Part shown: positions 1,640 to 23,398 of the stretch, one piece after another
How positions within the stretch are numbered: position 1 is the first letter of the stretch
Layout of the letters: every line of letters starts with the position of its first letter
From: Candidatus Hydrogenedens sp.
GTDB taxonomy: Bacteria; Hydrogenedentota; Hydrogenedentia; Hydrogenedentales; Hydrogenedentaceae
DNA length: 64,000 nt
Direction: 5' to 3'
Assembly: GCA_049968235.1 (NCBI GenBank)
Contig: JBMFRC010000001.1
Coordinates: 128,001-192,000 of the forward strand
Notes under the pieces: model-generated
What the model saw: only the letters and a program-made list of their open reading frames with translations
The model's database searches: none
What the model was told of the DNA's origin: nothing
Translations under genes and position numbers: made by a program

Positions 1640-1763
1640 TCAGGTTTGTAGACGAACTTGTTTTTAATCTCGTCCTTTCTGTTATGAGTTCTTGTAAATA
1701 ATTTAACTGTTACTATATTTATACCACAAATACAGCTTTTGTTGCCGTATTTTTGTCTTATTT

Positions 1764-3005: not shown

Positions 3006-3022
3006 GGTTCCAATTCCTTTTT

Positions 3023-4801: not shown

Positions 4802-4831
4802 ATTACAAACTTTCTTTTATGTCTTCTTAAA

Positions 4832-5941
4832 CTATGCAACTTCTCCTTCTTTCTTGGGAGCAGGTCCACCTTCAATACCCAAAGCACGCGCAGCCGCTTC
4901 AAATTCATCCGGCATCTGTGCTTTGGCAAGGCAGTCTTCATATTTGCAAATACCCTTACGATACAGGGCAAGTAGATGTTCATCCAGCAAATTCATACCA
5001 TACTTATGTCCCGTCTGAATAGCGGATGTAATACGATAGGTTTTATTTTCACGAATTAAGTTTTGAATAGCAGGGGTACAATACATAATTTCATACGCAG
5101 CCACACGACCAAAACCACTTTTCCGGGGGACAAGAGTCTGGGAAATCACTGCTTTTAAGTTACCTGCTAACTGGGTCCGAATTTGTTCCTGCTGGTTTGA
5201 TGGGAAAGCGTCCACGACACGGTCTACCGTTCTCACCGCACCTGTGGTGTGAAGGGTTGCGAATACAAGGTGCCCCGTTTCGGCTGCGGTAATTGCCGCT
5301 TCGATAGTTTCGAGGTCACGCATTTCCCCGACGAGAATTACATCCGGGTCCATACGCAATGCTCTTCTCAAAGCCTCTGCGAAAGTCGGTACATCTACAC
5401 CTACTTCACGCTGGGTAATAATTCCTTTTTTATGGGTGTGATAGTATTCTATTGGGTCTTCAATAGTAATAATATGAGAATCTAAATTAGTATTAATCCA
5501 ATCAAGCATGGTAGCCAATGTTGTTGTTTTTCCGGAACCCGTGGGTCCTGTAATCAGAACCAATCCACGCGGTTGTCGGAGTAAGTTTTCTATATGTCGG
5601 GGCAAACCTAATTCTTCAAAAGTTAGTATTTTGCGAGGGATTAGTCGCAATACGATACCTACATACCCCTTTTGTTTAAAAATAGCCACACGGAAACGTG
5701 CAATATCCTCAAATGCGAAACCGAAGTCAGAACCACCTACTTCTTGCAATTCTTGTTGATTATCTACAGAAGCAATACTTTTCATTAATCGTTCGGTATC
5801 TTCGGGCGTTAATGGGTCTTCACCAAAGAAAACCAATCGACCGTGAACTCTTCCCACAGGAGGATTATCCACCGCAAGATGTAAGTCAGAGCCTTCACGG
5901 TCTATCAACATCCGCAATAAACTTACCATTTCATAAGCCAT
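4832..5941 (-). CDS. pilT: PilT-type retraction (twitching motility) ATPase
   Basis: 369 aa. N-terminus [28 protein letters not shown]; Walker [17 protein letters not shown]; [19 protein letters not shown]. PilT length, no MshEN domain, no tetracysteine motif. Confidence 0.85.
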
Positions 5942-5963
5942 ATATGTATCTCCTTATATTCAA

Positions 5964-8018: not shown

Positions 8019-8531
8019 TTATTTTAATGTTACAAGGGTTAATTCGCAATCAATGCCTTTCCCGCTTTGATTGGGTTTTAATTTATCCATTTTATACACA
8101 GCTAATAAATAGGAATCGTCATAAATACGCTTTAAGAATTCGGAAAACCGTTTTAAGGACACCCCTTCTAGTTTAATTTGCACCATCGGTTGGCGGGAAC
8201 TACTTGCTCGTGCACGATAATTATCAAGTTTGGCTCTATCGGTTAATTGAGTTTCTTTGAGTAATTGGTTCACATAGGAAAAGAAGTCAAAATTTGGAGG
8301 TCTCTTTTCTATTATACGAAGTAACATTTCCTGAGTTTTTAAACTTTCTTCTTGTTCTTTCTTTAGTTTCTCTACCATTTGCAATTGATTATATGATTGA
8401 GTTAGTTCATTTCTGGATTGCAAAAATTTTCGATAAGGTCCTCTATGGAGATATATTGCCATGCTTATAACAGCGATAAAACTCACAATCATTGTAATTA
8501 AATAAATTCGATCAAGAAGAGTTTGGTTCAT
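8019..8531 (-). CDS. GspM-like bitopic inner-membrane protein (assignment by position and topology)
   Basis: 170 aa with one N-terminal TM (IYLITMIVSFIAVISMAIYL) followed by a coiled-coil periplasmic region. It is the last gene of the gspC-M array. Confidence 0.45.
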   Translation of the reverse strand: MNQTLLDRIYLITMIVSFIAVISMAIYLHRGPYRKFLQSRNELTQSYNQLQMVEKLKKEQEESLKTQEMLLRIIEKRPPNFDFFSYVNQLLKETQLTDRAKLDNYRARASSSRQPMVQIKLEGVSLKRFSEFLKRIYDDSYLLAVYKMDKLKPNQSGKGIDCELTLVTLK

Positions 8532-8548
8532 TTTCTCTACCTCATTTG

Positions 8549-10108
8549 TTATTTTTTCTCTGCACTGGTTTGAGGTGAAGCATTATTTTTTTGTGGGAGC
8601 GAAGACTTTTGTACTTTTTGTATTCGTATTGCAAAACTGGTTTGATTTCCTTGAGCACTTAATTCTGGCTCATCCACAATATTAAAATAACTTACCTTCT
8701 TTAATTCAGAAATCGCCTGATTTATAAAAGCGGAATCGCCGGTTGTTCCCTGTATTCGAATCCACCAACTTTGCACATCAGGCGAACTTAATTTAATTTC
8801 TGTAATATTCACTTTATCCGAGGGCAGTTTTTCGGCAATGGTATTTAGTATATCCAGAAGAGGGGGGTCAAAGAAGGGAGATAAATCTATATTCTCATCC
8901 AGCCCTTTCTCCTGATTAACTCGATCTATTTCCTGGGTTAATTCATTTGCCTTTGCTTTATATAGATTACTATAAACAAGATTATTTAGTGTTAATTGTT
9001 GAAGGAAAAAGGCACCGCATACAAGCCCGGTCAGGATAAGACAATTGGTAAATATCAAATGACGGGATAAAGAGGATAAATAGGAATATAAGGATTGGTT
9101 TTCTTTTAGCAAATTAAATGAAAAGTAGGGGTCTAATGTTATTCCTGCTATACCCATGAGAGGATACCAGCGGGAAAGTGATTCCTCGGATTCTGCTTTC
9201 ATAGTATTTGGGAAAAGTAAAGATTGAGATAAAGAAACAGGCTCCACTTCCATCTTTACCAATCGTGAAAAAACACCTATCTCTTCATCGGATAAAGATA
9301 ATCCACTAATTTCTAATTTTTCTATTCCTTCTTTACTTTTCCATCGGGCAAGAAATGCTCTTAGGCTATTTTGTACTTCCCGGGCAAAAATTTCAGGATT
9401 CTCATAATAATTCTGAACACCTAATACCAGATGCCGTATAAAAACGAGTTTTCCTTCGTAAAGAACAGCAAGCGTAGAGAAATCTTTATGAACCACCAAA
9501 GCAGATTTTAATTTTTTTGTTTCTTTGCTTGCCTTTTCCCAGAGATATACTAAACCGAGTGAATTAATAACTGCAGTTTCGGGTTCTACAGAAAATTCCC
9601 GTAGGTATTGGATATAGTTTTGTATATGCTGTTTGCGGACACCCATCGTCAATACTTCTGTCTCTTTTTTTGTTTCATTCACCACAGTAAAATCAAGCAT
9701 TAACTCTTCAATGGGGAAAGGAATATGGGGTTCTAATTCAAAGCGAAGAGCAGACACTACTTTCTTCATTCCCCGAAATGGAACTGTTAATGACCGCACG
9801 ATACTTACAGAACACGGAACGGAAAGGGCAAAACATGTTGGTTTATGTTTTAATTGTTTAAAGGCTTCCTCTAATGCATTCAATACAGGTTCATCTTTAT
9901 TGGGCGTTTCTTCTGCTGAAATTACAGGCACTTCAATATCTTGAAGTAATTCAAGATTTTTACCTTTTTTTCGAACGGTTGCTAATCGAACCACATTTTC
10001 GCAAATCTCAATTGTTGTTACCAAATTTCCCATGTGTCTTTCTTTCGTTTTTATGGCTTTTATGGCTATATATTTTTTATTTTTCCCTATTATTTTATAA
10101 CTTTCCAA
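8549..10108 (-). CDS. GspL-like protein (cytoplasmic actin-like domain, single TM, periplasmic domain)
   Basis: The N-terminal roughly 330 aa resembles the PilM/GspL cytoplasmic domain, followed by a TM (FTNCLILTGLVCGAFFL) and a roughly 150-aa periplasmic domain. Probable start is the internal Met (MGNLV, about 10033), which gives a 57-nt spacer with a GAAAGAAAG ribosome-binding site. Confidence 0.55.
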   Translation of the reverse strand: MESYKIIGKNKKYIAIKAIKTKERHMGNLVTTIEICENVVRLATVRKKGKNLELLQDIEVPVISAEETPNKDEPVLNALEEAFKQLKHKPTCFALSVPCSVSIVRSLTVPFRGMKKVVSALRFELEPHIPFPIEELMLDFTVVNETKKETEVLTMGVRKQHIQNYIQYLREFSVEPETAVINSLGLVYLWEKASKETKKLKSALVVHKDFSTLAVLYEGKLVFIRHLVLGVQNYYENPEIFAREVQNSLRAFLARWKSKEGIEKLEISGLSLSDEEIGVFSRLVKMEVEPVSLSQSLLFPNTMKAESEESLSRWYPLMGIAGITLDPYFSFNLLKENQSLYSYLSSLSRHLIFTNCLILTGLVCGAFFLQQLTLNNLVYSNLYKAKANELTQEIDRVNQEKGLDENIDLSPFFDPPLLDILNTIAEKLPSDKVNITEIKLSSPDVQSWWIRIQGTTGDSAFINQAISELKKVSYFNIVDEPELSAQGNQTSFAIRIQKVQKSSLPQKNNASPQTSAEKK

Positions 10109-11364
10109 TCCAAAATACGGAATGGCTCTGGAGGTAGCCCTCCTTGATTTTGGACTGTTGTGGAATTATTGTTTGTTCGTTGCATATTTCGAGTTAAATT
10201 TTGTTGATTTGTTTTGTTGGTAGCAGGGTTTATGTTGGGGTTCAGTCCTGAGTTACTGACATCACCTAACTCCATAGGATTACGGAAGACATACGTTTCA
10301 ATTCGCACCATTCTTTTTTGATAAAGCCCATCACCATATATTCGAAAAGCATTGCTCTGGAGAGTAAAAATTTGTCCTGACATAACATAGCGTTGAGTGC
10401 GATTATCCGGTCTTTCGGCAGGTGTAATAACTGGTTTCCCTGCTTGTTGGGGAGTATTTCTTCTCTGTGTTGTCGGTGGTTTGGGTAAAATACCATAGGC
10501 ATCTAGTTGGCTTAAATCTGTAAACGGTTGTGTATGTGCATCATCAAAAATTCGCTGTCCTAAACCTAAATCTGCGGGATTTCCTGTATAACCACTGACA
10601 ATTGCTGCTATTACTTCAGGTTGGGCAGAATTAATGTTTACCCTACCCAGCCAATCTCCATGAACAGTAAAATATTCCGATAGAGGTAACTGATTCTTCT
10701 CCGGGTCACCAAAATATATTTCCGGTGTAATTCCTTTAATCAACAGCAATTCCTCGATTGAATCCATAGGACCATTCTTACATGAGTATGGATTTTCCAA
10801 TCCCATATAATAATCGTTCTCTGCTCCTTGAGGTCTTTCAGAATCGCCCTCATTGTAATCTAACCAGTCGAGAATAGAATCAACAATAATATCCGGACTG
10901 GCACCTTTTCCTGTATCACGTAAGGCAAAAAATTCTTTTAAAGCATTAACTAGAGGTGTCCGTTCTTGAGGTTCTCCTCCAGATTGTGGAACCAGTAAAG
11001 CATTCAAATTTATTTTCCCATATTCATCTGATATTGAAGCATGCATAAGAGCATTATTTAATGGCTCTGTTCCTGCACTCATATTAAAAGAAAGAAGGTC
11101 AAAATCGCTATCTATGGGTGGAGCACCACTCATCATGGTATTTAAATTATCCTCTGCAAGATATGCAATTGCTTTAGCCACTGCAGATTTCGCAGCCAGA
11201 TACGCTTCCAGGTCTCCCTGTTGACTATATGCTAAAGAAGCCTCAACTTCTGCCTCATATAAAAATTCAACTACAATAATGGACAGTAAAGCGATAAATA
11301 CTAATGCAAGAATAATGGCTACTCCTGTCCTTTTGCAAAGTTGAATTTTCGATTTTAATTTCAT
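10090..11364 (-). CDS. GspK-like minor pseudopilin
   Basis: 424 aa. N-terminus RTGVAIILALVFIALLSIIVVEF is a prepilin-like hydrophobic helix without Glu at +5, as in GspK. It is the largest pseudopilin and sits in the canonical position after GspJ. Confidence 0.6.
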   Translation of the reverse strand: MKLKSKIQLCKRTGVAIILALVFIALLSIIVVEFLYEAEVEASLAYSQQGDLEAYLAAKSAVAKAIAYLAEDNLNTMMSGAPPIDSDFDLLSFNMSAGTEPLNNALMHASISDEYGKINLNALLVPQSGGEPQERTPLVNALKEFFALRDTGKGASPDIIVDSILDWLDYNEGDSERPQGAENDYYMGLENPYSCKNGPMDSIEELLLIKGITPEIYFGDPEKNQLPLSEYFTVHGDWLGRVNINSAQPEVIAAIVSGYTGNPADLGLGQRIFDDAHTQPFTDLSQLDAYGILPKPPTTQRRNTPQQAGKPVITPAERPDNRTQRYVMSGQIFTLQSNAFRIYGDGLYQKRMVRIETYVFRNPMELGDVSNSGLNPNINPATNKTNQQNLTRNMQRTNNNSTTVQNQGGLPPEPFRILDWKVIK

Positions 11365-11372
11365 GGTAATTT

Positions 11373-12260
11373 TTACCTTCTATTTCTGAACTTATCGCGT
11401 GCAGTAGTATTCGGAGTTGCACCTTTGGTTTTATTGCTATCCATCTTAAACAGGGAACCGACATCCCGGAAATGATTGGGGTCATCCATAGGTTGGACTG
11501 TTCCTACTGTTGTAGGTAGAACAATCACAAGGTCTATATCTCCTTCCCCATTTGCAGAGGCGTTGTTGACATCTCCATATTCATCAAATAGGTTCGCAAT
11601 AATATGTACCGCCCATGGCATCTGTTGAACTGATAGCGAATCCCATTCTTCTACCCAATCCTGTTTAATGGGGTCATAATAATAGATGTCTAACGAAGCA
11701 AGCGGAACTTTTATTACATTTACAGGCAGAGAATTAATATCGCTCGAAAAGCCACCGGATTCTTCATCCAGAATAAGTGGTGATTCTGTAATAGTCAAAA
11801 ATTGGGGAGCGTTATTTGAAATACCATATATATCTGTGGCAAAGCCCGACAGACCTTCAGGTGGAGATGTATCCTCAAAAGAATAGGTAACTACCCTACG
11901 AATACCCGGTAAGGCAGTGGGTCCTGGCATCGGTAATGAAGTGCAAAAACGGATGGAATCCGCAGGTCCATACTGTCCTGATTCGTTTTTTCCTATAAAT
12001 TGATAACCCGAAGAGGAATAGGAAGAGTCGATATACAGGGCATTAAAAGAATTGAAAAAATGATTTACTAAGAATCGTTGTATCCTCATTTTTTCCGCCG
12101 ATAACCGTGCTAAATCAGTCCCTTTTGATATAGAATCCAACCCTAAATAAACAATGATTACGATAATAGACATTATGGTAAAAGCAATGAGCAACTCCAG
12201 AAGTGTGAAACCATTGGCTTTTTTAGGGTAAGGATATTTATTTTCTTTTTTAATCCACAT
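11373..12260 (-). CDS. GspJ-like minor pseudopilin
   Basis: N-terminus KANGFTLLELLIAFTIMSIIVIIV has the prepilin motif with Glu+5. Position between the GspI-like and GspK-like genes. Confidence 0.55.
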   Translation of the reverse strand: MWIKKENKYPYPKKANGFTLLELLIAFTIMSIIVIIVYLGLDSISKGTDLARLSAEKMRIQRFLVNHFFNSFNALYIDSSYSSSGYQFIGKNESGQYGPADSIRFCTSLPMPGPTALPGIRRVVTYSFEDTSPPEGLSGFATDIYGISNNAPQFLTITESPLILDEESGGFSSDINSLPVNVIKVPLASLDIYYYDPIKQDWVEEWDSLSVQQMPWAVHIIANLFDEYGDVNNASANGEGDIDLVIVLPTTVGTVQPMDDPNHFRDVGSLFKMDSNKTKGATPNTTARDKFRNRR

Positions 12261-12263
12261 AAA

Positions 12264-12827
12264 TTAATTTCCCAACAGGGAATTCCTTCTTGCAGAGAAG
12301 CCACTGGCAGGGGCTTTCATAGGGTTTGTAGTTCCTCCTCGATTGGTTTTATTGGTATCACCGGTTAAATCATTTGTTTGATTTTCCATAGTCAGGTCAT
12401 AACACAAAAAGGTCAAGTTTTTGCTTTCATTCTCCGGAGTGTATAAGGTTACATTTACAGAATATAAGAGAATAGATGGGTCAGAACCTATTGCAGTGGC
12501 AGAATAACTCCATGAGTAGCCTTCATAACTTGTTCCGAAATCGCCATTTCCTTCCAGTGTCCCCGTCAGCACTCCTATTTCTGCACGGGAGCAAGCCGCA
12601 TAAACCAATTGATTTTCATCTGTCTGATTTATAGTAATCTGGTGAAGTTTCATTGCATTAAAGTAGACATTAAACAGAATAAAAGCGGAACCTCCTAAGA
12701 TGGCTAATGCCGTCAAAATCTCCATCAGCGTGAAACCAACTTTTGTTTTTTTATCTTTTATAGCGAATAAAAATATTTTCATTGGGCTCCTTCCAGCACA
12801 TAAGCACCTGCGGAAACAGGGTCCCAT
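12264..12827 (-). CDS. GspI-like minor pseudopilin
   Basis: KTKVGFTLMEILTALAILGGSAFILF prepilin motif. The ORF-track start overlaps the upstream gene; the probable real start is the internal MKIFLF Met (about 12782). Confidence 0.5.
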   Translation of the reverse strand: MGPCFRRCLCAGRSPMKIFLFAIKDKKTKVGFTLMEILTALAILGGSAFILFNVYFNAMKLHQITINQTDENQLVYAACSRAEIGVLTGTLEGNGDFGTSYEGYSWSYSATAIGSDPSILLYSVNVTLYTPENESKNLTFLCYDLTMENQTNDLTGDTNKTNRGGTTNPMKAPASGFSARRNSLLGN

Positions 12828-13597
12828 ACAACGGTATAATAATCATTATTTGCGTTTCTTACATAAAAACCAATTGATTCTGTTAACCCGAGAGGTGTTA
12901 CAGGTATTTCTACAAGACCTCTGGAAAACTTATTTCCACCGATAAAAACGCTTTCAATCGTTATATTTTCGGACAAACGAACCGGAGATAGACCCGGTTC
13001 ATTGACTTCTTCTATTACTGGCTCTATATTAAATATATCCACATTATTCTTTTTATCAAAAAGAGGTCCTATCTCATCCATTAGGCTATCTTCATGTTTC
13101 ACATTTTTTGCTTGTTCTATTAATTTCCTTTTTGCCAATTTTTCAAATCGGTCATTAATCTGTCGGTTCATGGCTTCTGTATCAAAACCTCCTGGAGCAG
13201 GAGTGTTTCTCGTGTTTTTTGTAGTGCCTGTTCCCGTAGCAGAATTCATAAAAAGTTCTGCCATTTGTTCCGGGGACATGCCCTGCTCTTTCATACTTTC
13301 AAACAGCCCTAATTGGTCTTGTTCTCCCTCATTTGCCTCAGGATAAGTAACTTTTAAACAATAATATTTCTGTTGGTCTAAATCAATTTCTACATAGAAT
13401 TCATCTCCCAATAAAGCGGATGTTGACATTACTGCTCTACCGAAATATGCTAATCGCCTGGCTTCGCTTTCCAACTCCGAAGATAATGCAAGGGGAAGCA
13501 AATAAGGAACAGTAATAGTTGCCATTAAGGCAATAATAAAAATAACAATCCCCAATTCAAGCAATGTAAAGCCATCTTTTCCCCGTAAAGCAACCAT
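12779..13597 (-). CDS. GspH-like minor pseudopilin
   Basis: N-terminus MVALRGKDGFTLLELGIVIFIIALMATITVPYLL has the prepilin motif with Glu+5. It directly follows gspG. Confidence 0.5.
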   Translation of the reverse strand: MVALRGKDGFTLLELGIVIFIIALMATITVPYLLPLALSSELESEARRLAYFGRAVMSTSALLGDEFYVEIDLDQQKYYCLKVTYPEANEGEQDQLGLFESMKEQGMSPEQMAELFMNSATGTGTTKNTRNTPAPGGFDTEAMNRQINDRFEKLAKRKLIEQAKNVKHEDSLMDEIGPLFDKKNNVDIFNIEPVIEEVNEPGLSPVRLSENITIESVFIGGNKFSRGLVEIPVTPLGLTESIGFYVRNANNDYYTVVWDPVSAGAYVLEGAQ

Positions 13598-13642
13598 AAT
13601 TTTAATATTTATACCTCATGCAAAAAATAATATCCTGCGGAA

Positions 13643-14038
13643 TTAATCTTCGCTGGAAATGTCCGCATTGACTCCACTCCCCCCGGGACTTCCATCTCCA
13701 CCATAGGACATAATCTTATAAGAAGAGTTTCCTTCTTTTTGATAGACATATGCGTTACCCCACGGATCTAACGGAACTTTGGGTGGGTCAAGAAATGGAG
13801 CAATTTCTTCTAAAGTGTTCGGCAAACGTTTGTTTTTTATCCGATACATCTGGATGGCAGTCTTCATATTACTGATTTCTGCTTTTGCTTTTGCCTGGTC
13901 CGCATCATCCAACGCACCAAATACATAAATACCGACGGTCGTGGCAAGAATTGCAATAATGGCTATAACTACCATTAGTTCTACCAGTGTAAAGCCCAAT
14001 AAATTCTTTATTTTTTTCTTCGTTTTTTCTTGTGTCAT
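13643..14038 (-). CDS. gspG: type II secretion major pseudopilin GspG
   Basis: 131 aa. Prepilin motif LLGFTLVELMVVIAIIAILA with Glu+5. The GspG-signature C-terminal region includes DPWGNAYVY. Confidence 0.85.
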   Translation of the reverse strand: MTQEKTKKKIKNLLGFTLVELMVVIAIIAILATTVGIYVFGALDDADQAKAKAEISNMKTAIQMYRIKNKRLPNTLEEIAPFLDPPKVPLDPWGNAYVYQKEGNSSYKIMSYGGDGSPGGSGVNADISSED

Positions 14039-14041
14039 GTT

Positions 14042-15280
14042 TCATCCTCCAACATGTGTACTCATTTTTAGTATAGGCAATAAAATCGCCAGAACCAGAA
14101 ATCCGACGAAAATACCCATTACTACTATTATAACGGGTTCTATCAGTCCAACGATAGCATCAACGGTCAAACGAACATCTTCATCATAGGTATCTGCTAT
14201 CTGAATTAACATATTTTCCAGTTCACCACTTCGTTGCCCTAATTCAACCATATGAATCATCATAGATGGAAATATTCCGGAATCTTTCATAGGCTGAGCC
14301 AGGTCTCTACCTCTACGGACACCTGCTTTTATATCATCCAGATGCATTTGAATGAACCGATTATCCATAATACTATAAACAACATCCAGAGCAGGAAGCA
14401 TGGTTAAACCGCTTTGAAGCATTGTCCCCAATGTCCGTGAGAATCTTGCACAAAGTAATTTTTGAAGTAAAGTACCATAGAGCGGAATTTTAAATTTCCA
14501 TCGGTCCCATTTTTTTTTGCCTTCTTCGCGACTAACCCATATCCGCCATATTATTATCAGAAAAAATAAAAAGCCTATGAAGAATATGCCGTATTTCCCT
14601 AAAAAGGAGCTTACCCCTATAAGCACATCGGTAATGAAAGGTAGTTCTGATTGTTGTTTCTTAAAAATAGTCGTGATTCGAGGGACAATAACAGTCATCA
14701 TAAAAGTAATAACCGTAATAGCAAAAACGGTCATAAAAGCAGGGTAGGCAATGGATGATAGTATCTGTGCTTTTATCTTTGCCTGTCGGTCTAAAACATC
14801 TGCCAGACGATTTAATACCTGCTCTAATGTTCCACTGGCTTCTCCAGCACGAACCATATTTACATAAAGAGAACTAAAAATACGGGGATGCTCTGCCAGT
14901 GCGTCTGCGAGATTTTTCCCGGCATTTACTTTATCACGGACATCCAGTATTGCGGTTTTTAATCGTTGACGGGATGTTTGATTTATTAATGCATTCAGGG
15001 CTTCTACCAGAGGCATACCGGCACGGAGTAGCACTGCAAACTGTCGTGTCATTAAGGCTACGTCTCTTGTTGAAACACCGCCACCAAACAGGAAAAACTG
15101 CGATTTTCCTTTCCCTCCTTCTTTTAAACTAACACCATCTGTAACTTCTTTTAGTTCGGTGGGATAAAGGTCTAACTCCCGTAATTTCATTCGTGCTAAT
15201 GCAGGTGAATCCGCGTCAATTACGCCACGCGTTGTTTTTCCACTATCTTTTATTAGTGCTTTATATTGATAAACAGGCAT
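14042..15280 (-). CDS. gspF: type II secretion platform protein GspF
   Basis: 412 aa polytopic protein of the GspF/PilC family. Lies between gspE and gspG with a 4-nt spacing to gspG. Confidence 0.85.
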   Translation of the reverse strand: MPVYQYKALIKDSGKTTRGVIDADSPALARMKLRELDLYPTELKEVTDGVSLKEGGKGKSQFFLFGGGVSTRDVALMTRQFAVLLRAGMPLVEALNALINQTSRQRLKTAILDVRDKVNAGKNLADALAEHPRIFSSLYVNMVRAGEASGTLEQVLNRLADVLDRQAKIKAQILSSIAYPAFMTVFAITVITFMMTVIVPRITTIFKKQQSELPFITDVLIGVSSFLGKYGIFFIGFLFFLIIIWRIWVSREEGKKKWDRWKFKIPLYGTLLQKLLCARFSRTLGTMLQSGLTMLPALDVVYSIMDNRFIQMHLDDIKAGVRRGRDLAQPMKDSGIFPSMMIHMVELGQRSGELENMLIQIADTYDEDVRLTVDAIVGLIEPVIIVVMGIFVGFLVLAILLPILKMSTHVGG

Positions 15281-15327
15281 ATTTTCTCAAAATATTATAA
15301 AGGGGTGTTTTTTTTCTTGCTTTCTTT

Positions 15328-17067
15328 TTAATAGGTTTCTTCAAATACATCGTCTCTGGTTACCCGAAGGACTTCTTCCAATGTTGTTAATCCTTTCAAC
15401 ATTTTTTCTGCTCCGTCTTCACGGAGGGTACGCATTCCTTCTTTATGTGCTTCTCGTTTAATTACATTTGAGTCCGCTCCTTCAAGAACTAATTCTTGTA
15501 TCCTCGGACTCATCATTAATAGTTCAAATATTCCCGTTCTGCCATAATAACCCCGTTCCATACACTTTTGACATCCTTTACCTCGCCATAAAGTTTCTGC
15601 TCGTGGGTCGGGCTTTTTTATACCTAATTCTTCTAATGGATTTCGGTCAGGTTTATATGGTTCCTTACATTGGGTACAAATTTTACGCACCAATCGCTGG
15701 GCTTGAATTGCAATACAGGAAGAGGTAACAAGAAAAGGTTCAATTCCCATATTCGTAAGTCGGGTGATAGCACCTGCACTATCATTTGTATGTAATGTTG
15801 CAAAAACGAGATGTCCTGTTAAAGATGCTTGAACTGCCATTTCGGCTGTTTCTAAATCACGAATTTCACCTACAAGAATAATATCCGGGTCCTGTCTCAA
15901 AATACTTCTTAAACCTGCTGCAAAGGTCAATCCTATTTTGGGACGAACCTGTATCTGTCCAATCCCCGCAATTAAATATTCTATAGGGTCTTCTAAGGTA
16001 ATAATATTTTTGTCGGGAGAATTAACCCTCTGCAAGGAAGCATATAAAGTTGTAGATTTTCCAGAACCAGTAGGTCCTGTAACTAAAATAATTCCGTGGG
16101 AGACTGTAATAATGCGGTCAAACATCTTGTGGTCGCGTTCATCCATTCCCAAATCTTCCAGGCTGAACAGGAAATTCCCTTTTTCAAGGATACGTAAAAC
16201 CACGCGTTCACCAAAAGCGGTTGGGAGTATGGACACACGAATATCAATTTCTTTGCCACTTAACTTAATTTTTATACGTCCATCCTGTGGTAAACGATGC
16301 TCTGCAATATTGAGATTGGACATGATTTTAATACGCGAAATCACCGCTGCCTGCTGAGATTTGGGTATTGTAAATTTCTCATACAGAACGCCGTCAATAC
16401 GATAGCGGACACGGACTTCGCGTTCAAATGGCTCAATATGAATATCCGACGCCCTTTCTTTAACCGCTCCTGTAATAAGTAAGTTGATAAGTTTAATAAT
16501 CGGTGCTTCATTAGCAAGGTCCAGCAGGTCCTTTTCGGTCTCTGTTCCATCTAAGGTATGGATGGTTGTCGCACCGTCTTCTTCTGCCATTGCTATTGTA
16601 TCTATCATCTCAGCGGTATTTTGCGTTTGACTGTCAAAATAAGAATCTACAATTTTTTGTATATCTGATTTACGGCATAAAACGGGCTGAACTGAACCAC
16701 CGAGAAGTACCCGTAGGTCATCCAGAGGCAGGAGATTTATAGGGTCATTTAAGGCAACCAGATAACCGTTCCCGTTTTGTTTAAACGGAACCATAAAATA
16801 TTCGCGAATAAAATTTATTGGAACTTTCGTAATCAGGTTCATATCCACCTGTTGTGAAAGATTTAATTCCATTGGGATTCCAAACTGTTCGCTTAATGCT
16901 TCCAGAACATGTTCTTCTTCTACAAAACCGAGGTCCAGCAAAATCTCTCCTAACCGGCGCGGTTTAATCTTCTGGAGTTCTAAAGCCTCCGTTATTTGCT
17001 CCGGATGAACATATCCTTTTTGGAGTAAAATTTCTCCAAACTGCATTTCAGCGAGTAACTTATCCAT
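15328..17067 (-). CDS. gspE: type II secretion ATPase GspE with N-terminal MshEN domain
   Basis: Walker [15 protein letters not shown]; LHTNDSAGAITRL; tetracysteine CTQCKEPY...CQKC. N-terminal motifs MQFGEILLQKGYVHPEQITEALELQ and RRLGEILLDLGFVEEEHVLEALSEQ. The start codon overlaps the gspD stop (TAATG). Confidence 0.9.
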   Translation of the reverse strand: MDKLLAEMQFGEILLQKGYVHPEQITEALELQKIKPRRLGEILLDLGFVEEEHVLEALSEQFGIPMELNLSQQVDMNLITKVPINFIREYFMVPFKQNGNGYLVALNDPINLLPLDDLRVLLGGSVQPVLCRKSDIQKIVDSYFDSQTQNTAEMIDTIAMAEEDGATTIHTLDGTETEKDLLDLANEAPIIKLINLLITGAVKERASDIHIEPFEREVRVRYRIDGVLYEKFTIPKSQQAAVISRIKIMSNLNIAEHRLPQDGRIKIKLSGKEIDIRVSILPTAFGERVVLRILEKGNFLFSLEDLGMDERDHKMFDRIITVSHGIILVTGPTGSGKSTTLYASLQRVNSPDKNIITLEDPIEYLIAGIGQIQVRPKIGLTFAAGLRSILRQDPDIILVGEIRDLETAEMAVQASLTGHLVFATLHTNDSAGAITRLTNMGIEPFLVTSSCIAIQAQRLVRKICTQCKEPYKPDRNPLEELGIKKPDPRAETLWRGKGCQKCMERGYYGRTGIFELLMMSPRIQELVLEGADSNVIKREAHKEGMRTLREDGAEKMLKGLTTLEEVLRVTRDDVFEETY

Positions 17068-19724
17068 TATTTTCTATAAATTGTCCCACGGTTAAATTCT
17101 TCTTGTTCTACCTGTCCGGTTAACGCTTCTGTCCTATCTAAAGTAGGACGATAATTTTTTCGCATATCTGCCTTTGCCTTAACTTTTTTGAAAAACCCGC
17201 CCTTGAATAACTCTTGTATATTTACATCTTGATATTCTGTAACCTTATACTGTGTAACCCGCTCCATATCACTGGATTCTTTTACAATATGTGGTGTAAC
17301 CAGAACTACCATATTACGTTTTTCTCGCGATACGGATTTATTACGAAATAGGAAACCTAATAAAGGAATATCTCCCATAATTGGAACTTGTGTCCTATTC
17401 CGGTCTGCGGTATCTCTTATTAAACCGGCTAAAACTGCTGTTGAACCATCTTTTACAAGCACTTGATTTTTAAATAGAGATTTATTTGTTGTCGGACCTA
17501 AAATATTTACATCCCCTACAGATTGAGTACCTCCAGCCACTGCAGATACTTCTATCTCAATTTTCATCAAAACATTATCGCCCTCACTGATTTGAGGGGT
17601 TACCGTGAGTTTGATACCTACCTCATGTCGTTCTACACGAGTATAACCGCCCCATGTGCTTCCTATAACCTCTCCCGTCGTTGTGCGTTGAGGACTTGCT
17701 GTGCTTGTAATGAATGGGACTTCCTGACCTACGACTATGGATGCCTCTTCATTATCTACCGTAACCAAACTGGGTTGAGAAAGCACTTCTAAATCGGAAA
17801 CAGTCTCTATTGCTTGTAACAGGAGTGGGACAAAAGGAACCCGTAACCGCTGGGTCTTGCTGATTGGAATAACAATGTCGTCATATATCCCTGTTGTGAG
17901 ACCTCCTCCGGAACCTAAACTTAACGCTCCTAACATACGATTCAGTCGGCTCGGGCTGGTAATTTTATTCGCCGCATCTGCTGCAGGTTTTAAGGAATCT
18001 ACAATTTTTTGTATATTTTGTGTTCCTGTAACAGCAAATCCGGAATTTCCACTAATACTTGCGGAATCTACTTTGACCCCATAATCATTGTTCAATCGCA
18101 CGTCCATGACTACTGCATCAACAAGCACCTGTCTTTGGGGTACATCCAGACGGGCAATAAATGCTTCTAACACTTTATAATCCTGTGGGGAAGCAACAAC
18201 AAGCAGTGAATTGGTCTGGTCATATCTTGTAATTTGAACTCGCTGTTCAAACGGTTGCACATCTCCCGGAGCAGAAGACATGGTTGAAGGGGCTATTGTT
18301 CCACCAGCACCTGGCACCGCACCCCCTGGAGTTGTTCCGGCACCTGTAGGTCGTCTTGTTGAACCAGAACCACCAATGAGTGGTTGTAATGCCTGCTCTA
18401 CTTTCTCTGCATCGGCATTTAGTAGTTCATAAATATGCAAATTATTGGCTTCATAAGGAGTAGGACAGTCTAACCGTTTTATCAGGTCACGAACTTTTTC
18501 CATCATACCTTCAGTTGCAACAACGATTAACGCATTCAATCTCGTATCGGGAACCATACGAAGGACTTCCTGTCGCGAACCAATAATTTGCATGGACGGC
18601 GCACCTGGTACAGAACGTGTCGGAGGTCTTACCACAGGTTGTGGGGTCATAGGAGTTCCCGGAACTCTACCACCCGCAGTTGTGGTTTTCGTTTCGGATA
18701 AAACTTGTTCAATCTGTTGGGCTAAGGCTTCTGCACGGGTATATTCGAGCATAAATATTTCCATTTCCGTTTCATTTCCGGAAACATCTATTTCTTGTAG
18801 AAATGAAAATATGCGTTTTAGCCCATCTGCAGTGTCTGTAATAATCAATGTATTTGTAGGTGCGTAGGCAGAAATACGACATGATTTGGAACCCAATACC
18901 TGTAAAGCGGTAGATACTTCGGAGGCATCTGCATACTTTAAGGTAATAATATGAGTAGCAAATTTGTCATACCCTTCTGGAAGTTTTTCGGTTCCTCTGA
19001 TTAAGGGTGTTTTTTCAGAGGCAACAGCGTCGGGAGTTGCAATTATCTTGATTAATTTTCCATCTAGCGTCTCAACCATAGAGAAGCCTCGAGATGCCAG
19101 TATAGATTCAAGAACCTGATATGCCATTTCAGGGGGAATTTTATCATGAGTTATAACAGTAACAGTTGTCGCTCCAATGTTCGGGTCAACATCAAAGTTT
19201 CTGCCCGTTAAACGAGCAATTGCTGCTATAACATCATATAAAGGGGCATCGTGAAAATCGAAGGAAATCGGTTCGGAAGGAGTTTCACCTGTTTTGGGTC
19301 CTGTTTCTGCGGCAATACCGATAGGGGTCTTTCCCGATGTATCACCTCCCGGAGGAGTTTTCCTTGGTCCAGGAGGGAGGGGGGGGTGATTTCCTCTTCT
19401 CATTGTGGGGAAAGAAGGTATAGGTGGTCTTGAGGAACCTGGAGGGGAGACAGGTTCCGGCATTGTAATAGGAGGGCGAACTGCTTCTGGTGCGGTTTGA
19501 GGAGGCATTTCTGGAGGATTTTCTGGAACCGAAGGTGCATCCACAATCTGCGGTATTTCGATATTTGTCGGAGGAGCATCCTGCGGAACCTGCTCTACAT
19601 CCTGACCATAGCCAGAATATACAAACATATTAACAAACAGTAATAAAAAAATAATTATTCTTTTCCCAGAGAAAAAGAAACAGCGATTCTTATAGTTTGA
19701 TATAAACTCAATTGGATTTCGCAA
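17067..19724 (-). CDS. gspD: type II secretion outer-membrane secretin GspD with Pro-rich N-terminal extension
   Basis: Secretin C-domain motifs: VLVKDGSTAVLAGLIRDT, IPLLGFLFRNKS and VVLVTPHIV. Upstream N0 and N-domain repeats. Signal peptide followed by about 100 aa rich in Pro. Confidence 0.85.
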   Translation of the reverse strand: MRNPIEFISNYKNRCFFFSGKRIIIFLLLFVNMFVYSGYGQDVEQVPQDAPPTNIEIPQIVDAPSVPENPPEMPPQTAPEAVRPPITMPEPVSPPGSSRPPIPSFPTMRRGNHPPLPPGPRKTPPGGDTSGKTPIGIAAETGPKTGETPSEPISFDFHDAPLYDVIAAIARLTGRNFDVDPNIGATTVTVITHDKIPPEMAYQVLESILASRGFSMVETLDGKLIKIIATPDAVASEKTPLIRGTEKLPEGYDKFATHIITLKYADASEVSTALQVLGSKSCRISAYAPTNTLIITDTADGLKRIFSFLQEIDVSGNETEMEIFMLEYTRAEALAQQIEQVLSETKTTTAGGRVPGTPMTPQPVVRPPTRSVPGAPSMQIIGSRQEVLRMVPDTRLNALIVVATEGMMEKVRDLIKRLDCPTPYEANNLHIYELLNADAEKVEQALQPLIGGSGSTRRPTGAGTTPGGAVPGAGGTIAPSTMSSAPGDVQPFEQRVQITRYDQTNSLLVVASPQDYKVLEAFIARLDVPQRQVLVDAVVMDVRLNNDYGVKVDSASISGNSGFAVTGTQNIQKIVDSLKPAADAANKITSPSRLNRMLGALSLGSGGGLTTGIYDDIVIPISKTQRLRVPFVPLLLQAIETVSDLEVLSQPSLVTVDNEEASIVVGQEVPFITSTASPQRTTTGEVIGSTWGGYTRVERHEVGIKLTVTPQISEGDNVLMKIEIEVSAVAGGTQSVGDVNILGPTTNKSLFKNQVLVKDGSTAVLAGLIRDTADRNRTQVPIMGDIPLLGFLFRNKSVSREKRNMVVLVTPHIVKESSDMERVTQYKVTEYQDVNIQELFKGGFFKKVKAKADMRKNYRPTLDRTEALTGQVEQEEFNRGTIYRK

Positions 19725-19768
19725 GTTTCAACTCCTAATATATAAATATTTGTTGTTCATATCTATAA

Positions 19769-20731
19769 CTAATCTTGTATTCTATAGATTATTTCCATCG
19801 GGTTTCCATTTCTAAGGATGGATACTTTAACAGAGGGAAGTGTAACATCACTGTATTTTTTTATCAAGTCTATTACCTTTTCATCACTATCAATAATATC
19901 GTCGTTTACTGCGGTAAGGACATCTCCTTCCTTAAACCCTAATTTTACTGCAATCGGAATTTCACTAATATTTTTTGCAGTAATGCCGAGTACTTTGCCT
20001 TCCGCATCTTTATACAATTCCGGCTTAACACGCGTAACCAAATCTGCATAACTTGCAAAAAAGTCCTGTACGATTTCATCTCGATTTAAATCTACTTGCT
20101 TTTTCTCAGGCTCATTCGTTTTTGCAGGTTTCGAATCAGTTTTACTGGGTGGTTTTTCCTCTTTTGCTTTTAATAATTCTAAAGATTTATCTTCTAATTT
20201 CAATCGTTCTCTTTTAGGGGGATGGGTTTTTTTATTTAACAATATCACTTCTTTAGGATATACCTCTTCTAAAACTACCTGCTCAACGACTTCCTGTCCA
20301 ATAGCAAAAGCAGCGGTAATTCTTTTGTCGGAATTTTCAATGAAAGCGGATGCAAATCGGTCTTTAGGAGACAGGGCAATGGTCCCTATTAATTTTAAGT
20401 TTAATTGAGTATCTTCAAGAGTATCCTGAGGAGACAGTTGTTCTGTTTTTTCTTCTTTTTTAGGAACTGTATCCTCTGTCCATCTACCTGCATTTCCAAA
20501 TAAACCTGATTGTGTTATTTTGTTGAAAAGACTTTTAGCATCAATATTTATTAACTCATTCTGCACAGTTCCTTCTTCCTCACCGGCTATACCTGTTTTT
20601 TTGGCTATTTTCTGGGCAGGATTGTAGGTATAAATAATAAAAAAGAAAACTCCAAGTGCAATAAGTATTGAAAAAATCAGTATGATATGAATAAGAAAAA
20701 ATAGTCTTTTAATTTCTAACGAATGAACCAT
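19769..20731 (-). CDS. GspC-like protein (N-terminal TM, charged linker, C-terminal PDZ domain)
   Basis: TM helix LFFLIHIILIFSILIALGVFFFII. C-terminal PDZ-like segment GITAKNISEIPIAVKLGFKEGDVLTAVNDDII. It is the first gene of the gsp array. Confidence 0.5.
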   Translation of the reverse strand: MVHSLEIKRLFFLIHIILIFSILIALGVFFFIIYTYNPAQKIAKKTGIAGEEEGTVQNELINIDAKSLFNKITQSGLFGNAGRWTEDTVPKKEEKTEQLSPQDTLEDTQLNLKLIGTIALSPKDRFASAFIENSDKRITAAFAIGQEVVEQVVLEEVYPKEVILLNKKTHPPKRERLKLEDKSLELLKAKEEKPPSKTDSKPAKTNEPEKKQVDLNRDEIVQDFFASYADLVTRVKPELYKDAEGKVLGITAKNISEIPIAVKLGFKEGDVLTAVNDDIIDSDEKVIDLIKKYSDVTLPSVKVSILRNGNPMEIIYRIQD

Positions 20732-20914
20732 ACTGCCCTTTCATAGGAAAAATAACTCCTTGCAGTAAATCATGAATTGAACGGAATTTAGCCATTATTA
20801 GTTGACTAAATTCTCATGATAAGTTTAAACGAAATATCCTCCCTTTCGCAAAGTCTATTTACTATTGTAAGAAGTTTTTATAGTAATGGCTAACAGGTTA
20901 ATAAATTGAGAATC

Positions 20915-23332: not shown

Positions 23333-23398
23333 GGTCCGAACTCCTTTCTTTCGTCCGGAATTATCAATCTTTGTTTTTTCATTTATAATTTCATCTCC

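What the first reader, a model, noticed from the sequence alone, without database searches (positions are those of the whole stretch)
16850..17067. All three extension ATPases carry tandem MshEN-type c-di-GMP-binding motifs
The MshEN consensus is RLGxx(L/V/I)(L/V/I)xxG(I/F)(L/V/I)xxxxLxxxLxxQ in two tandem copies. It matches the N-termini of all three ATPases:
- GspE: QFGEILLQKGYVHPEQITEALELQ and RLGEILLDLGFVEEEHVLEALSEQ;
- the 592-aa ATPase (about 4570-4750): RLGDILVEQGIIIPLQLDEALQRQ and FLGRVLVSMGYCDEQAIVEALGTQ;
- the 613-aa PilB-like ATPase (about 7625-7805): LFGQILVEKKIISEEQLREAIHRQ and KIGEILVRLGYISKSHIIETLSEQ.

This predicts that one second messenger jointly gates secretion and pilus extension, while PilT lacks the domain.
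Basis: partly seen in the sequence, partly recalled or inferred. Interest (0 to 1): 0.5.

Follow-up and report, generated by a model that had tools for sequence, protein, structure and literature searches.

The report
c-di-GMP-sensor N-domains on three secretion/pilus ATPases
Three motor ATPases in one secretion-and-pilus gene cluster of an uncultured bacterium each start with a well-known cyclic-di-GMP-binding (MshEN) domain, a real but ordinary feature already described for this protein family.

Summary
All six quoted peptides are at the stated places on the minus strand: GspE aa 9-61, the 592-aa ATPase aa 20-72, the 613-aa ATPase aa 6-60. NCBI's curated 'c-di-GMP_motif, MshE-related' model (cutoff 38 bits) scores them 64.1, 63.5 and 60.9 bits; PilT has no hit. 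An HMM built only from characterised proteins hits just these three of 611 six-frame segments. AlphaFold models of the GspE and 613-aa N-domains have c-di-GMP-bound V. cholerae MshE (5HTL) as top structural match. All six motif copies keep the residues that matter most: Gly3, hydrophobic 2/17/21 and Gln24. Position 1 is non-canonical in GspE motif I (Gln) and 592 motif II (Phe). The 613-aa protein has a 7-residue spacer and Lys at the helix turn. Binding is therefore likely but unproven, because a perfect motif is not sufficient (Thermus PilF GSPII-A). In close GspE relatives, motif I Gly is often Cys. 'Joint gating' is inference: no GGDEF, EAL, HD-GYP or PilZ gene and no riboswitch lies in the 64 kb, and c-di-GMP barely changes ATPase activity in studied homologues. 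MshEN domains on both T2SS and T4P ATPases were published in 2015-2016. Verdict: new members of a known kind, low interest.

The parts
16885..17043 (-). GspE tandem MshEN_N motif (aa 9-61): QFGEILLQKGYVHPEQITEALELQ - KIKPR - RLGEILLDLGFVEEEHVLEALSEQ
   Evidence: Translation. NF053729 64.1 bits at aa 10-61. Gapless alignment to VcMshE 8-66. Independent HMM 52.4 bits.
16621..16884 (-). GspE MshEN_C / N1E alpha-beta subdomain (aa 62-149)
   Evidence: Pfam PF05157 MshEN 60.6 bits at aa 62-149. AF2 model pLDDT 91.2. Top Foldseek match 5HTL_B, TM 0.77/0.83.
15328..17067 (-). gspE, type II secretion ATPase (579 aa)
   Evidence: TIGR02533 GspE 691.8 bits, above cutoff 630.25. Flanked by gspD and gspF. 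TAATG overlap with the gspD stop.
7626..7790 (-). 613-aa ATPase tandem motif (aa 6-60): LFGQILVEKKIISEEQLREAIHRQ - QTTMSHR - KIGEILVRLGYISKSHIIETLSEQ. It has a 7-residue spacer and Lys at the alpha1-alpha2 turn.
   Evidence: Translation. NF053729 60.9 bits. Aligns to VcMshE with a 2-residue insertion in the spacer, gaplessly to Geobacter PilB. AF2 pLDDT 93.8 with top hit 5HTL_A, TM 0.86/0.89, rmsd 1.7.
5964..7805 (-). PilB-like extension ATPase (613 aa) with a Ser-rich linker between the N-domain and the ATPase core
   Evidence: Pfam T2SSE and MshEN. TIGR02538 PilB is the best hit at 635.1 bits, below its cutoff of 675.65. A syntenic orthologue is in L002.
4586..4744 (-). 592-aa ATPase tandem motif (aa 20-72): RLGDILVEQGIIIPLQLDEALQRQ - RLTGD - FLGRVLVSMGYCDEQAIVEALGTQ
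   Evidence: Translation. NF053729 63.5 bits. Gapless alignment to VcMshE 7-64 and to PilF GSPII-B. Independent HMM 46.1 bits.
3023..4801 (-). Second GspE/PilB-family ATPase (592 aa), family assignment ambiguous
   Evidence: TIGR02538 601.6 and TIGR02533 594.1 bits, both below their cutoffs. 40-44% identical to the other two.
4832..5941 (-). pilT retraction ATPase (369 aa), without an N-terminal MshEN domain
   Evidence: TIGR01420 461.1 bits, above cutoff 319.1. No MshEN or NF053729 hit.
17067..20731 (-). gspD secretin (17067-19724) and gspC (19769-20731)
   Evidence: Pfam Secretin, Secretin_N, GspD_N0; T2SSC and PDZ.
8019..15280 (-). The rest of the gsp operon: gspF 14042-15280, gspG 13643-14038, three pseudopilin-like ORFs 11373-13597, gspK 10090-11364, a GspL/PilM-PilN-like gene 8549-10108, and a 170-aa ORF 8019-8531
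   Evidence: Pfam and NCBIfam hits. The 170-aa ORF and the 187-aa ORF have no hit, so their roles are inferred from position only.
767..3005 (-). Platform protein (GspF/PilC family, 1764-3005) and a prepilin-type protein (767-1639) downstream of the 592-aa ATPase
   Evidence: T2SSF 223 bits. GspF 428.4 versus PilC 427.1 bits, so the type is ambiguous. N_methyl motif in the prepilin-type protein.

Best explanation
The window carries a gspC-D-E-F-G-(pseudopilins)-K-L operon. On the same strand it is followed directly by a PilB-like ATPase, PilT, a second GspE/PilB-family ATPase, a platform protein and a prepilin. Each of the three long (assembly-type) ATPases begins with a genuine MshEN (GSPII) domain. 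This domain is a four-helix bundle made of two tandem 24-residue motifs, followed by an alpha/beta subdomain. Shown here: domain identity, in-register conservation of the ligand-contacting residues, and predicted fold. Inferred: each N-domain binds one monomeric c-di-GMP across the two motifs. In that mode each guanine is sandwiched by the position-1 side chain and the Leu2/Leu17/Leu21 cluster, hydrogen-bonded to the backbone NH of Gly3 and the next residue, with Gln24 contacting ribose and phosphate, as in VcMshE and Thermus PilF GSPII-B. By analogy with MshE, MxPilB and PilF, the bound state would favour productive engagement or stability of the assembly motor rather than change its ATPase rate. 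High c-di-GMP would then promote fibre assembly while PilT stays messenger-blind. The 592-aa protein (RLG / FLG) is the most confident binder, and the hydrophobic Phe at position 1 of motif II may even raise affinity, as Leu196 does in PilF. The 613-aa protein (LFG / KIG, 7-residue spacer) is probable. GspE (QFG / RLG) is probable but the least certain.
For: NF053729 'c-di-GMP_motif, MshE-related' scores 64.1, 63.5 and 60.9 bits against a cutoff of 38, and Pfam MshEN covers the C-subdomain in all three. phmmer against the PDB hits 5HTL MshE, the c-di-GMP-bound PilF GSPII-B entries and Geobacter/Myxococcus PilB. The alignments are in register with VcMshE 8-66. All six copies keep Gly3, a hydrophobic residue at positions 2, 17 and 21, and Gln24. 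Position-1 residues R, R, L and K fall within the extended consensus (R/K/L) of PMC11731258. The independent HMM hits only these three ORFs. AF2 gives pLDDT 91.2 and 93.8, and the top Foldseek hit is 5HTL (MshE with c-di-GMP), TM up to 0.86/0.89 and rmsd 1.7-2.3 A. None of the three has the Thermus GSPII-A-type N-cap hexapeptide in the equivalent register (sequence inspection against PMC12002112). The MshE residues R88 and D108 correspond to R88 and D108 in GspE, on the basis of the equal-length 8-116 alignment (PMC4624772). Intact tandem motifs also occur in GspEs with secretin, GspF and GspG neighbours in other lineages. The three are old paralogues (N-domains 31-33% identical), so the motif has been maintained independently in each.
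Against: No binding data exist for these proteins. A perfect consensus is not sufficient for binding (GSPII-A, PMC12002112). R9A cut MshE binding by 83% (PMC4624772), and GspE has Gln and the 613-aa protein Leu at that position; neither residue was seen at motif I position 1 in 37 intact relatives. Close GspE relatives often carry Cys at the essential Gly3 of motif I, which suggests relaxed constraint on binding in this clade. Non-binding homologues (XpsE 2D28, GSPII-A 9G1W, XcPilB-N 7LKO) are also strong fold matches, so the fold is not diagnostic. No c-di-GMP turnover gene, PilZ gene or riboswitch lies in the window. The 592-aa N-domain was not modelled. Assigning the 592- and 613-aa proteins to 'pilus extension' rests on gene context, because both score below the PilB and GspE equivalog cutoffs.
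Confidence: 0.75

Rival explanations
1. One or more of the N-domains, most plausibly that of GspE, is an MshEN-fold domain that has lost nucleotide binding. It would serve only as a docking module for machine partners (GspL or PilM-type cytoplasmic domains, or a PilZ/FimX-type adaptor), as in Xanthomonas XpsE, X. citri PilB and Thermus PilF GSPII-A.
For: Non-binders are strong structural matches. GspE motif I starts with Gln. In close relatives the Gly3 of motif I is Cys in L002 and in P0005, P0008, P0010, P0012 and P0013, scattered across the tree. In other pilB-pilT-pilB loci one paralogue is routinely degenerate. PMC12002112 shows that a consensus motif can still be silent.
Against: The window copies themselves keep Gly3 and Gln24 in all six motif copies and score 61-64 bits on the curated binding-motif model. 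Documented non-binders have multiple substitutions at key positions: XpsE has G11V, L29R, R38G, G40L and Q61V, and GSPII-A has H33, S39, A41 and R62 (PMC5013675, PMC12002112). No comparable substitutions occur here. No N-cap lock motif is visible.
Confidence: 0.2
2. The domains bind a different cyclic dinucleotide, for example 3'3'-cGAMP, as their physiological ligand.
For: VcMshEN binds cGAMP weakly (PMC5013675). The position-1 residues here are unusual (Gln, Phe, Leu). No c-di-GMP enzymes are seen in the window.
Against: The guanine-specific contacts (backbone NH of Gly3 and the next residue, and Gln24) are conserved in both half-sites of all three proteins. No CD-NTase or Hypr-GGDEF gene is in the window. 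No MshEN domain is known to prefer another ligand.
Confidence: 0.04
3. The resemblance is chance or compositional, from Leu/Glu-rich helices, with no common origin with MshEN.
For: None beyond the helical, low-complexity look of the peptides.
Against: E-values of 1e-17 on a curated model. Only 3 of 611 segments hit the independent HMM, and shuffles reach at most 8.1 bits. PDB homology has E down to 5e-10 over 58 residues. The predicted fold matches 5HTL.
Confidence: 0.01

Closest known systems
Vibrio cholerae MshE N-terminal domain (MshEN, PDB 5HTL; Roelofs 2015 PMC4624772; Wang 2016 PMC5013675)
   Same: Two tandem 24-residue motifs at the extreme N-terminus of a GspE/PilB-family assembly ATPase. 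GspE and the 592-aa protein align without gaps in the motif region, with a 5-residue spacer. Gly3, Leu-type 2/17/21 and Gln24 are kept. It is the best structural match for both predicted models (TM 0.77-0.89).
   Different: N-domain identity is only about 28-30%. Position 1 is Gln (GspE motif I), Phe (592 motif II), and Leu and Lys (613) instead of Arg. The 613-aa protein has a 7-residue spacer and no turn Gly in motif I. No binding data exist here.
Pseudomonas aeruginosa PA14_29490 (HxrA), a T2SS-operon ATPase that binds c-di-GMP (Kd 480 nM; PMC4624772)
   Same: A GspE-branch ATPase encoded in a T2SS operon with an MshEN-type N-domain. It is the precedent for a c-di-GMP-sensing T2SS motor.
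   Different: I made no sequence comparison with PA14_29490. According to the papers read, only binding, not control of secretion, has been shown for it. The window GspE passes the canonical GspE equivalog model and sits in a full gspCDEFG..KL operon.
Thermus thermophilus PilF GSPII-B and GSPII-C domains (PDB 8PDK and others; PMC11731258)
   Same: Non-Arg residues at position 1 (Lys167, Leu196) with very tight binding (6 nM). This is the precedent for Leu/Lys (613) and, by hydrophobic analogy, Phe (592 motif II). In GSPII-C motifs I and II are separated by 7 residues, as in the 613-aa protein.
   Different: PilF has three GSPII domains in one polypeptide, whereas here there is one domain on each of three proteins. 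Which motif pair of GSPII-C binds the ligand was not established from what I read.
Myxococcus xanthus / Chloracidobacterium thermophilum / Geobacter PilB ('MshEN+ type' PilB; PMC6957770, PMC11656802; PDB 3JC8, 5TSG, 5ZFR)
   Same: A T4aP assembly ATPase with an N-terminal MshEN domain. Geobacter PilB shares with the 613-aa protein the 7-residue spacer and a non-Gly turn residue (Asn) in motif I, and aligns without gaps. c-di-GMP does not change ATPase activity in vitro.
   Different: The 613-aa protein scores below the PilB equivalog cutoff, carries a roughly 50-residue Ser-rich linker, and no pilMNOPQ genes are adjacent.
Non-binding MshEN-fold domains: Xanthomonas XpsE N-domain (2D27/2D28), Thermus PilF GSPII-A (9G1W), X. 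citri PilB N-domain-PilZ complex (7LKO)
   Same: Same fold, and strong Foldseek hits. They show that the domain can act as a pure protein-interaction module.
   Different: Those proteins carry several substitutions at Gly3, Leu and Gln24 positions or an N-cap lock. The three window proteins do not.
Acinetobacter baylyi PilB + TfpB (two extension ATPases on one pilus; reviewed in PMC11656802)
   Same: More than one assembly ATPase is encoded for what may be one machine, and the two PilB-type genes flank pilT.
   Different: Both window proteins score far below the TfpB model cutoff (453-488 against 850 bits). No evidence here shows that the two act on the same fibre.

Membership tests
MshEN / GSPII c-di-GMP-binding domain | Curated sequence model of the tandem binding motif (NCBIfam NF053729, cutoff 38 bits) | tested here: met
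   64.1 (GspE), 63.5 (592 aa) and 60.9 (613 aa) bits. No hit for PilT.
MshEN / GSPII c-di-GMP-binding domain | Two 24-residue motifs in tandem, joined by a 5-residue spacer | tested here: met
   The spacer is 5 residues in GspE (KIKPR) and the 592-aa protein (RLTGD). It is 7 in the 613-aa protein (QTTMSHR), as in Geobacter PilB and between motifs I and II of PilF GSPII-C. So this is met for two proteins and a known variant in the third.
MshEN / GSPII c-di-GMP-binding domain | Gly at position 3 of both motifs (its backbone NH binds guanine; G11L, G40I and Ala41 abolish or obstruct binding) | tested here: met
   Gly is present in all six copies. It is Cys in motif I of several close GspE relatives, but not in the window.
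MshEN / GSPII c-di-GMP-binding domain | Hydrophobic residues at positions 2, 17 and 21 (the Leu triangle) and Gln at position 24 | tested here: met
   Positions 2, 17 and 21 are F/I/L, L/V/L, L/L/L, L/I/L, F/L/I and I/I/L. Gln24 is present in all six. The substitutions are conservative (Phe, Ile, Val for Leu).
MshEN / GSPII c-di-GMP-binding domain | Position 1 is Arg (original consensus) or R/K/L (extended consensus, PMC11731258) | tested here: inconclusive
   R (GspE motif II, 592 motif I), L and K (613) conform. Gln (GspE motif I) and Phe (592 motif II) lie outside the published set, and Gln or Leu at motif I position 1 was not seen in 37 intact relatives.
MshEN / GSPII c-di-GMP-binding domain | Four-helix-bundle N-subdomain plus alpha/beta C-subdomain that superposes on 5HTL | tested here: met
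   AF2 pLDDT 91.2 (GspE) and 93.8 (613 aa). Foldseek top hit is 5HTL, TM 0.77-0.89, rmsd 1.7-2.3 A. The 592-aa protein was not modelled, and non-binders also match.
MshEN / GSPII c-di-GMP-binding domain | No structural lock on the binding site (a stable N-cap extension of helix 1 or inter-subdomain clamp, as in PilF GSPII-A) | tested here: inconclusive
   No T/S/D...E/Q/D N-cap hexapeptide lies in the register equivalent to L4-K9 of GSPII-A (inspection against PMC12002112). The AF2 model of GspE does extend helix 1 to residue 3, as in apo GSPII-B. Helix stability cannot be judged from sequence.
MshEN / GSPII c-di-GMP-binding domain | Specific sub-micromolar binding of c-di-GMP in vitro | not testable with these tools
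   This needs ITC, DRaCALA or DSF on purified N-domains.
T2SS ATPase GspE (TIGR02533) | Equivalog model above cutoff, plus a gsp operon context | tested here: met
   691.8 bits against a cutoff of 630.25 for the 579-aa protein. gspC, gspD, gspF, gspG, gspK and a GspL-like gene are adjacent.
T4aP assembly ATPase PilB (TIGR02538) | Equivalog model above cutoff (675.65 bits) | tested here: not met
   635.1 bits for the 613-aa protein and 601.6 for the 592-aa protein, both below cutoff. The 592-aa protein scores almost equally on GspE (594.1). They are GspE/PilB-family assembly-type ATPases, and 'pilus extension' is inferred from the adjacent pilT, platform and prepilin genes.
PilT/PilU retraction ATPase (TIGR01420) | Subfamily model above cutoff, and no N-terminal MshEN domain | tested here: met
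   461.1 bits against a cutoff of 319.1. 369 aa, with no MshEN or NF053729 hit.

The most novel reading that the evidence does not exclude
The three motors form a threshold-ordered c-di-GMP switch in one composite T2SS/T4P locus that has a single secretin and a single PilT. In this reading, lineage-specific changes at the guanine-stacking position 1 (Gln/Arg in GspE, Arg/Phe in the 592-aa protein, Leu/Lys in the 613-aa protein) give each motor a different affinity. Secretion and two modes of fibre extension would then switch on at different messenger levels. The repeated Gly<->Cys toggling in motif I of the GspE clade would be evolutionary tuning, or uncoupling, of the secretion arm.
Probability: 0.08. 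Interest if true: 0.5.

Novelty: new member of a known kind. Interest (0 to 1): 0.2.

Why it matters
If binding is confirmed, this would be an example from an uncultured lineage whose nearest relatives are labelled Nitrospirales or Hydrogenedentes. In it, a canonical T2SS motor and two pilus-type motors in one gene cluster all read the same second messenger while the retraction motor does not. That would support the general view that c-di-GMP biases fibre machines towards assembly. It adds natural position-1 variants (Gln, Phe) that could refine the rules for predicting MshEN affinity. It does not open a new question, because the domain, its motif, its structure and its presence on both T2SS and T4P ATPases have been published since 2015-2016.

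Tried and rejected
1. I looked for c-di-GMP enzymes or receptors near the locus. Pfam scans of 37 window ORFs (all non-nested ORFs of at least 120 aa), inspection of the 50-125-aa ORFs in the gaps, and an Rfam scan of both strands found no GGDEF, EAL, HD-GYP or PilZ gene and no GEMM riboswitch. This is uninformative about the rest of the genome.

2. I tried to extend the context with exact-protein look-ups. GspE and the 592-aa protein occur only on two short contigs (4.9 and 5.7 kb) of MAG GCA_049969095.1, so nothing was gained beyond the window.

3. A strict regex for the tandem motif passed only 25 of 91 relatives. I replaced it with hmmalign.

4. The promoter and terminator scan of 1500-21200 gave fewer promoter-like sites than shuffles and nothing decisive in the 213-bp gap before the 613-aa gene. 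Operon structure remains open.

5. The fold comparison cannot separate binders from non-binders, because both kinds are strong hits.

6. Dye et al. 2023 on MxPilB (PMC10521364) is not held in the library, so I relied on the review PMC11656802.

7. TfpB-type identity for the second PilB-like gene is rejected, with scores far below cutoff.

Full report
**What is in the sequence**

Genes in 767-34876 all lie on the minus strand. From upstream to downstream the order is:
- a 3825-aa PKD/TIG protein (23399-34876) and an 805-aa protein with a weak metalloprotease hit (20915-23332);
- gspC (19769-20731) and the gspD secretin (17067-19724);
- gspE (15328-17067, 579 aa), gspF (14042-15280) and gspG (13643-14038);
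- three pseudopilin-like ORFs, gspK (10090-11364), a GspL/PilM-PilN-like gene (8549-10108) and a 170-aa ORF;
- after a 213-bp gap, a 613-aa PilB-like ATPase (5964-7805), pilT (4832-5941, 369 aa) and a 592-aa GspE/PilB-family ATPase (3023-4801);
- a GspF/PilC-family platform gene (1764-3005) and a prepilin-type gene (767-1639).

Most intergenic gaps are 3-47 bp or overlaps.

The exact GspE and 592-aa proteins are otherwise found only on two short contigs of MAG GCA_049969095.1. The nearest species representatives are MAGs labelled uncultured Nitrospirales, at 76% and 68% identity. Close N-domain fragments are labelled Hydrogenedentes.

**Check of the observation**

Translation reproduces all six quoted peptides. 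The tandem motifs lie at 16885-17043 (GspE aa 9-61), 4586-4744 (592-aa protein, aa 20-72) and 7626-7790 (613-aa protein, aa 6-60). The gspE start is supported by a TAATG stop/start overlap with gspD.

NCBIfam's curated domain model NF053729 ('cyclic di-GMP-binding domain-containing protein, MshE-related', cutoff 38 bits) scores the three at 64.1, 63.5 and 60.9 bits and does not hit PilT. Pfam MshEN (PF05157) covers the following alpha/beta subdomain in all three.

As a control independent of the window, I built an HMM from VcMshE, Thermus PilF GSPII-B and -C and two Geobacter PilB sequences. It hits exactly these three of 611 six-frame segments, at 52.4, 48.4 and 46.1 bits. The next real segment scores 5.8 bits and the best of 20 shuffled sets 8.1 bits.

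**Residue-level comparison**

GspE and the 592-aa protein show no gap against VcMshE in the motif region (GspE over 8-66, 592 over 7-64). The 613-aa protein aligns with a two-residue insertion in the spacer, and without gaps to Geobacter PilB, which shares the 7-residue spacer and a non-Gly turn residue.

According to the defining structure paper (PMC5013675):
- each guanine is bound by the backbone NH of Gly3 and the next residue;
- it is also held by a Leu2/Leu17/Leu21 hydrophobic cluster shared between the motifs, and by Gln24;
- G11L and G40I abolish binding, and changing any conserved hydrophobic residue costs more than 10-fold in affinity.

All six copies here keep Gly3, a hydrophobic residue at positions 2, 17 and 21 (with Phe, Ile and Val substitutions) and Gln24.

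Position 1 is R in GspE motif II and 592 motif I, and L and K in the 613-aa protein. These fit the extended (R/K/L) consensus derived from Thermus PilF GSPII-B, which binds at 6 nM without any Arg (PMC11731258). Gln (GspE motif I) and Phe (592 motif II) fall outside the published set. R9A reduced MshE binding by 83% (PMC4624772), so Gln at that position is a real uncertainty. Phe is a hydrophobic residue like Leu196 of PilF.

Among 37 relatives intact in both motifs, motif I position 1 is R or K wherever it aligns, never Q or L. The turn position is Gly in only 17 of 37, so Lys there in the 613-aa protein is not unusual.

**Predicted structure**

The AlphaFold2 model of GspE 1-150 (27-sequence alignment) has pLDDT 91.2 and pTM 0.82. 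The model of 613-aa 1-147 has pLDDT 93.8 and pTM 0.81. In both cases the best PDB match is 5HTL, 'MshE with cdg': TM 0.77/0.83 with rmsd 2.3 A, and TM 0.86/0.89 with rmsd 1.7 A. The c-di-GMP-bound PilF GSPII-B entries rank close behind, directly after 5HTL for the 613-aa model.

However, known non-binders also match strongly (XpsE 2D28, PilF GSPII-A 9G1W, and the PilZ-binding N-domain of X. citri PilB, 7LKO). The fold shows homology, not binding competence.

**Limits on the inference of binding**

[quoted passage not shown] A stable N-cap extension of helix 1 and inter-subdomain contacts block the site (PMC12002112). I see no N-cap hexapeptide in the equivalent register of any of the three N-termini; the 613-aa protein has only five residues before motif I. 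This inspection is weak evidence.

More telling is the GspE clade itself. In the closest orthologue (L002, 76% identity), motif I reads QFC. Gly3 of motif I is also Cys in 5 of the 13 close relatives that cover this position (P0005, P0008, P0010, P0012, P0013). Motif II and both Gln24 residues stay conserved. In a low-resolution NJ tree the Cys variants are interleaved with the Gly variants.

So constraint on the first half-site of this GspE lineage looks relaxed, although the window copy keeps Gly. My ranking of binding likelihood is 592-aa, then 613-aa, then GspE.

**How common this is**

Of 91 long GspE/PilB-type ATPases in the fetched loci, 69 hit the tandem-motif HMM; 40 of the 68 non-redundant hits keep all the key residues in both motifs. 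None of 12 PilT-like proteins has the motif.

Intact motifs occur in GspEs with secretin, GspF and GspG neighbours in Nitrospirales, Nitrosovibrio, Myxococcales and Oligoflexia MAGs. The gspE-to-pilB spacing is conserved in L002.

In four other pilB-pilT-pilB loci (L016, L023, L062, L080) only one of the two PilB-type paralogues is intact. Having every long ATPase intact is therefore mildly uncommon in this small sample. The three window proteins are 40-44% identical overall and 31-33% in the N-domain, so they are old paralogues that each retained the motif.

**Mechanism**

Domain identity and conservation of the contact residues are shown. It is inferred that each N-domain binds one monomeric c-di-GMP across the two motifs.

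The consequence is inferred by analogy:
- MshE needs binding for MSHA pilus production, and high c-di-GMP favours extension (PMC4624772, PMC7096442 as summarised in PMC11656802).
- MxPilB motif mutants lose piliation and stability (PMC11656802).
- PilF GSPII-B binding mutants lose twitching and adhesion (PMC11731258).
- c-di-GMP changes ATPase activity by about 10% in MshE and not at all in CtPilB or GsPilB (PMC4624772, PMC6957770).

The likely effect is therefore on domain orientation, stability or engagement with the platform, not on catalysis.

For T2SS ATPases only binding is documented (PA14_29490, Kd 480 nM), while the canonical GspE, XcpR and PilB of V. cholerae and P. aeruginosa do not bind (PMC4624772). 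'Joint gating of secretion and pilus extension' therefore remains a hypothesis. The window contains no GGDEF, EAL, HD-GYP or PilZ gene and no Rfam hit of any kind, which says nothing about the rest of the genome.

**Comparison with what is known, and verdict**

The domain, its 53-residue binding module, its crystal structure, its occurrence in more than 10,000 proteins including gsp and pil operon ATPases, and counts of 1-22 copies per genome were all published in 2016 (PMC5013675). The conclusion that T2S and T4P are both c-di-GMP targets dates from 2015 (PMC4624772).

The three proteins here are new members of that known family in an uncultured lineage. The 579-aa protein is a member of GspE by the curated cutoff. 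The 613- and 592-aa proteins fall below the PilB and GspE equivalog cutoffs and are best called GspE/PilB-family assembly-type ATPases in a pilT/platform/prepilin context.

Interest is low. The only mildly unusual points are the non-canonical position-1 residues, the fact that all three paralogues are intact, and the Gly/Cys polymorphism in the GspE clade.

Noticed in passing
L002:9953-11719 (closest GspE orthologue); proteins P0005, P0008, P0010, P0012, P0013 (alignment A1): In the GspE clade, the Gly at position 3 of motif I is Cys in many close relatives (QFC, SLC, QLC, RLC, ELC). In VcMshE the backbone NH of this Gly contacts guanine, and G11L abolishes binding. In an NJ tree the Cys variants are interleaved with the Gly variants, suggesting repeated toggling. 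Motif II and both Gln24 residues stay conserved.
   Followed up: partly
L016:1336-6039, L023:7134-11773, L062:9989-14680, L080:9974-14683: The gene order pilB-type / pilT / pilB-type recurs in other phyla, including Planctomycetes MAGs. In these loci only one of the two long ATPases keeps an intact tandem motif. The other has lost Gly3 and/or Gln24, or has no hit at all.
   Followed up: partly
window 7200-7350 (minus strand; about aa 153-200 of the 613-aa ATPase): A roughly 50-residue, very Ser-rich low-complexity linker (…SLLSSASSASSVSSLSSMSNVSSFDSSLASSSSFSASDISLSSVS…) separates the MshEN domain from the ATPase core. The other two ATPases have no such linker.
   Followed up: no
window 20915-34876 (minus strand): A 3825-aa protein with PKD and IPT/TIG domains and an 805-aa protein with a weak matrixin-type metalloprotease hit lie directly upstream of gspC on the same strand. 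They are possible cargo of the T2SS.
   Followed up: no
window 767-3005 and 8549-10108: The platform protein next to the 592-aa ATPase scores the same on GspF (428.4 bits) and PilC (427.1 bits). No pilM/N/O/P/Q genes or second secretin lie in the window next to the pilB/pilT genes. The only PilM/PilN-like gene is the GspL-like 519-aa fusion inside the gsp operon. Whether the pilB-pilT-pilB part is a separate machine or shares components with the T2SS is open.
   Followed up: partly
window 62152-62927 (minus strand): A DNA methyltransferase (N6_N4_Mtase) appears split. A 165-aa ORF matches only profile positions 78-220, and an adjacent 82-aa ORF carries the N-terminal SPPY motif region (IHLIITSPPYW). 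This could be a frameshift or a pseudogene.
   Followed up: no
window 41313-44279 (plus strand): A 988-aa ORF has no Pfam hit at E <= 0.001.
   Followed up: no
window 1-64000: No Rfam family reaches its gathering score on either strand in 64 kb (no tRNA, riboswitch or other known RNA).
   Followed up: yes
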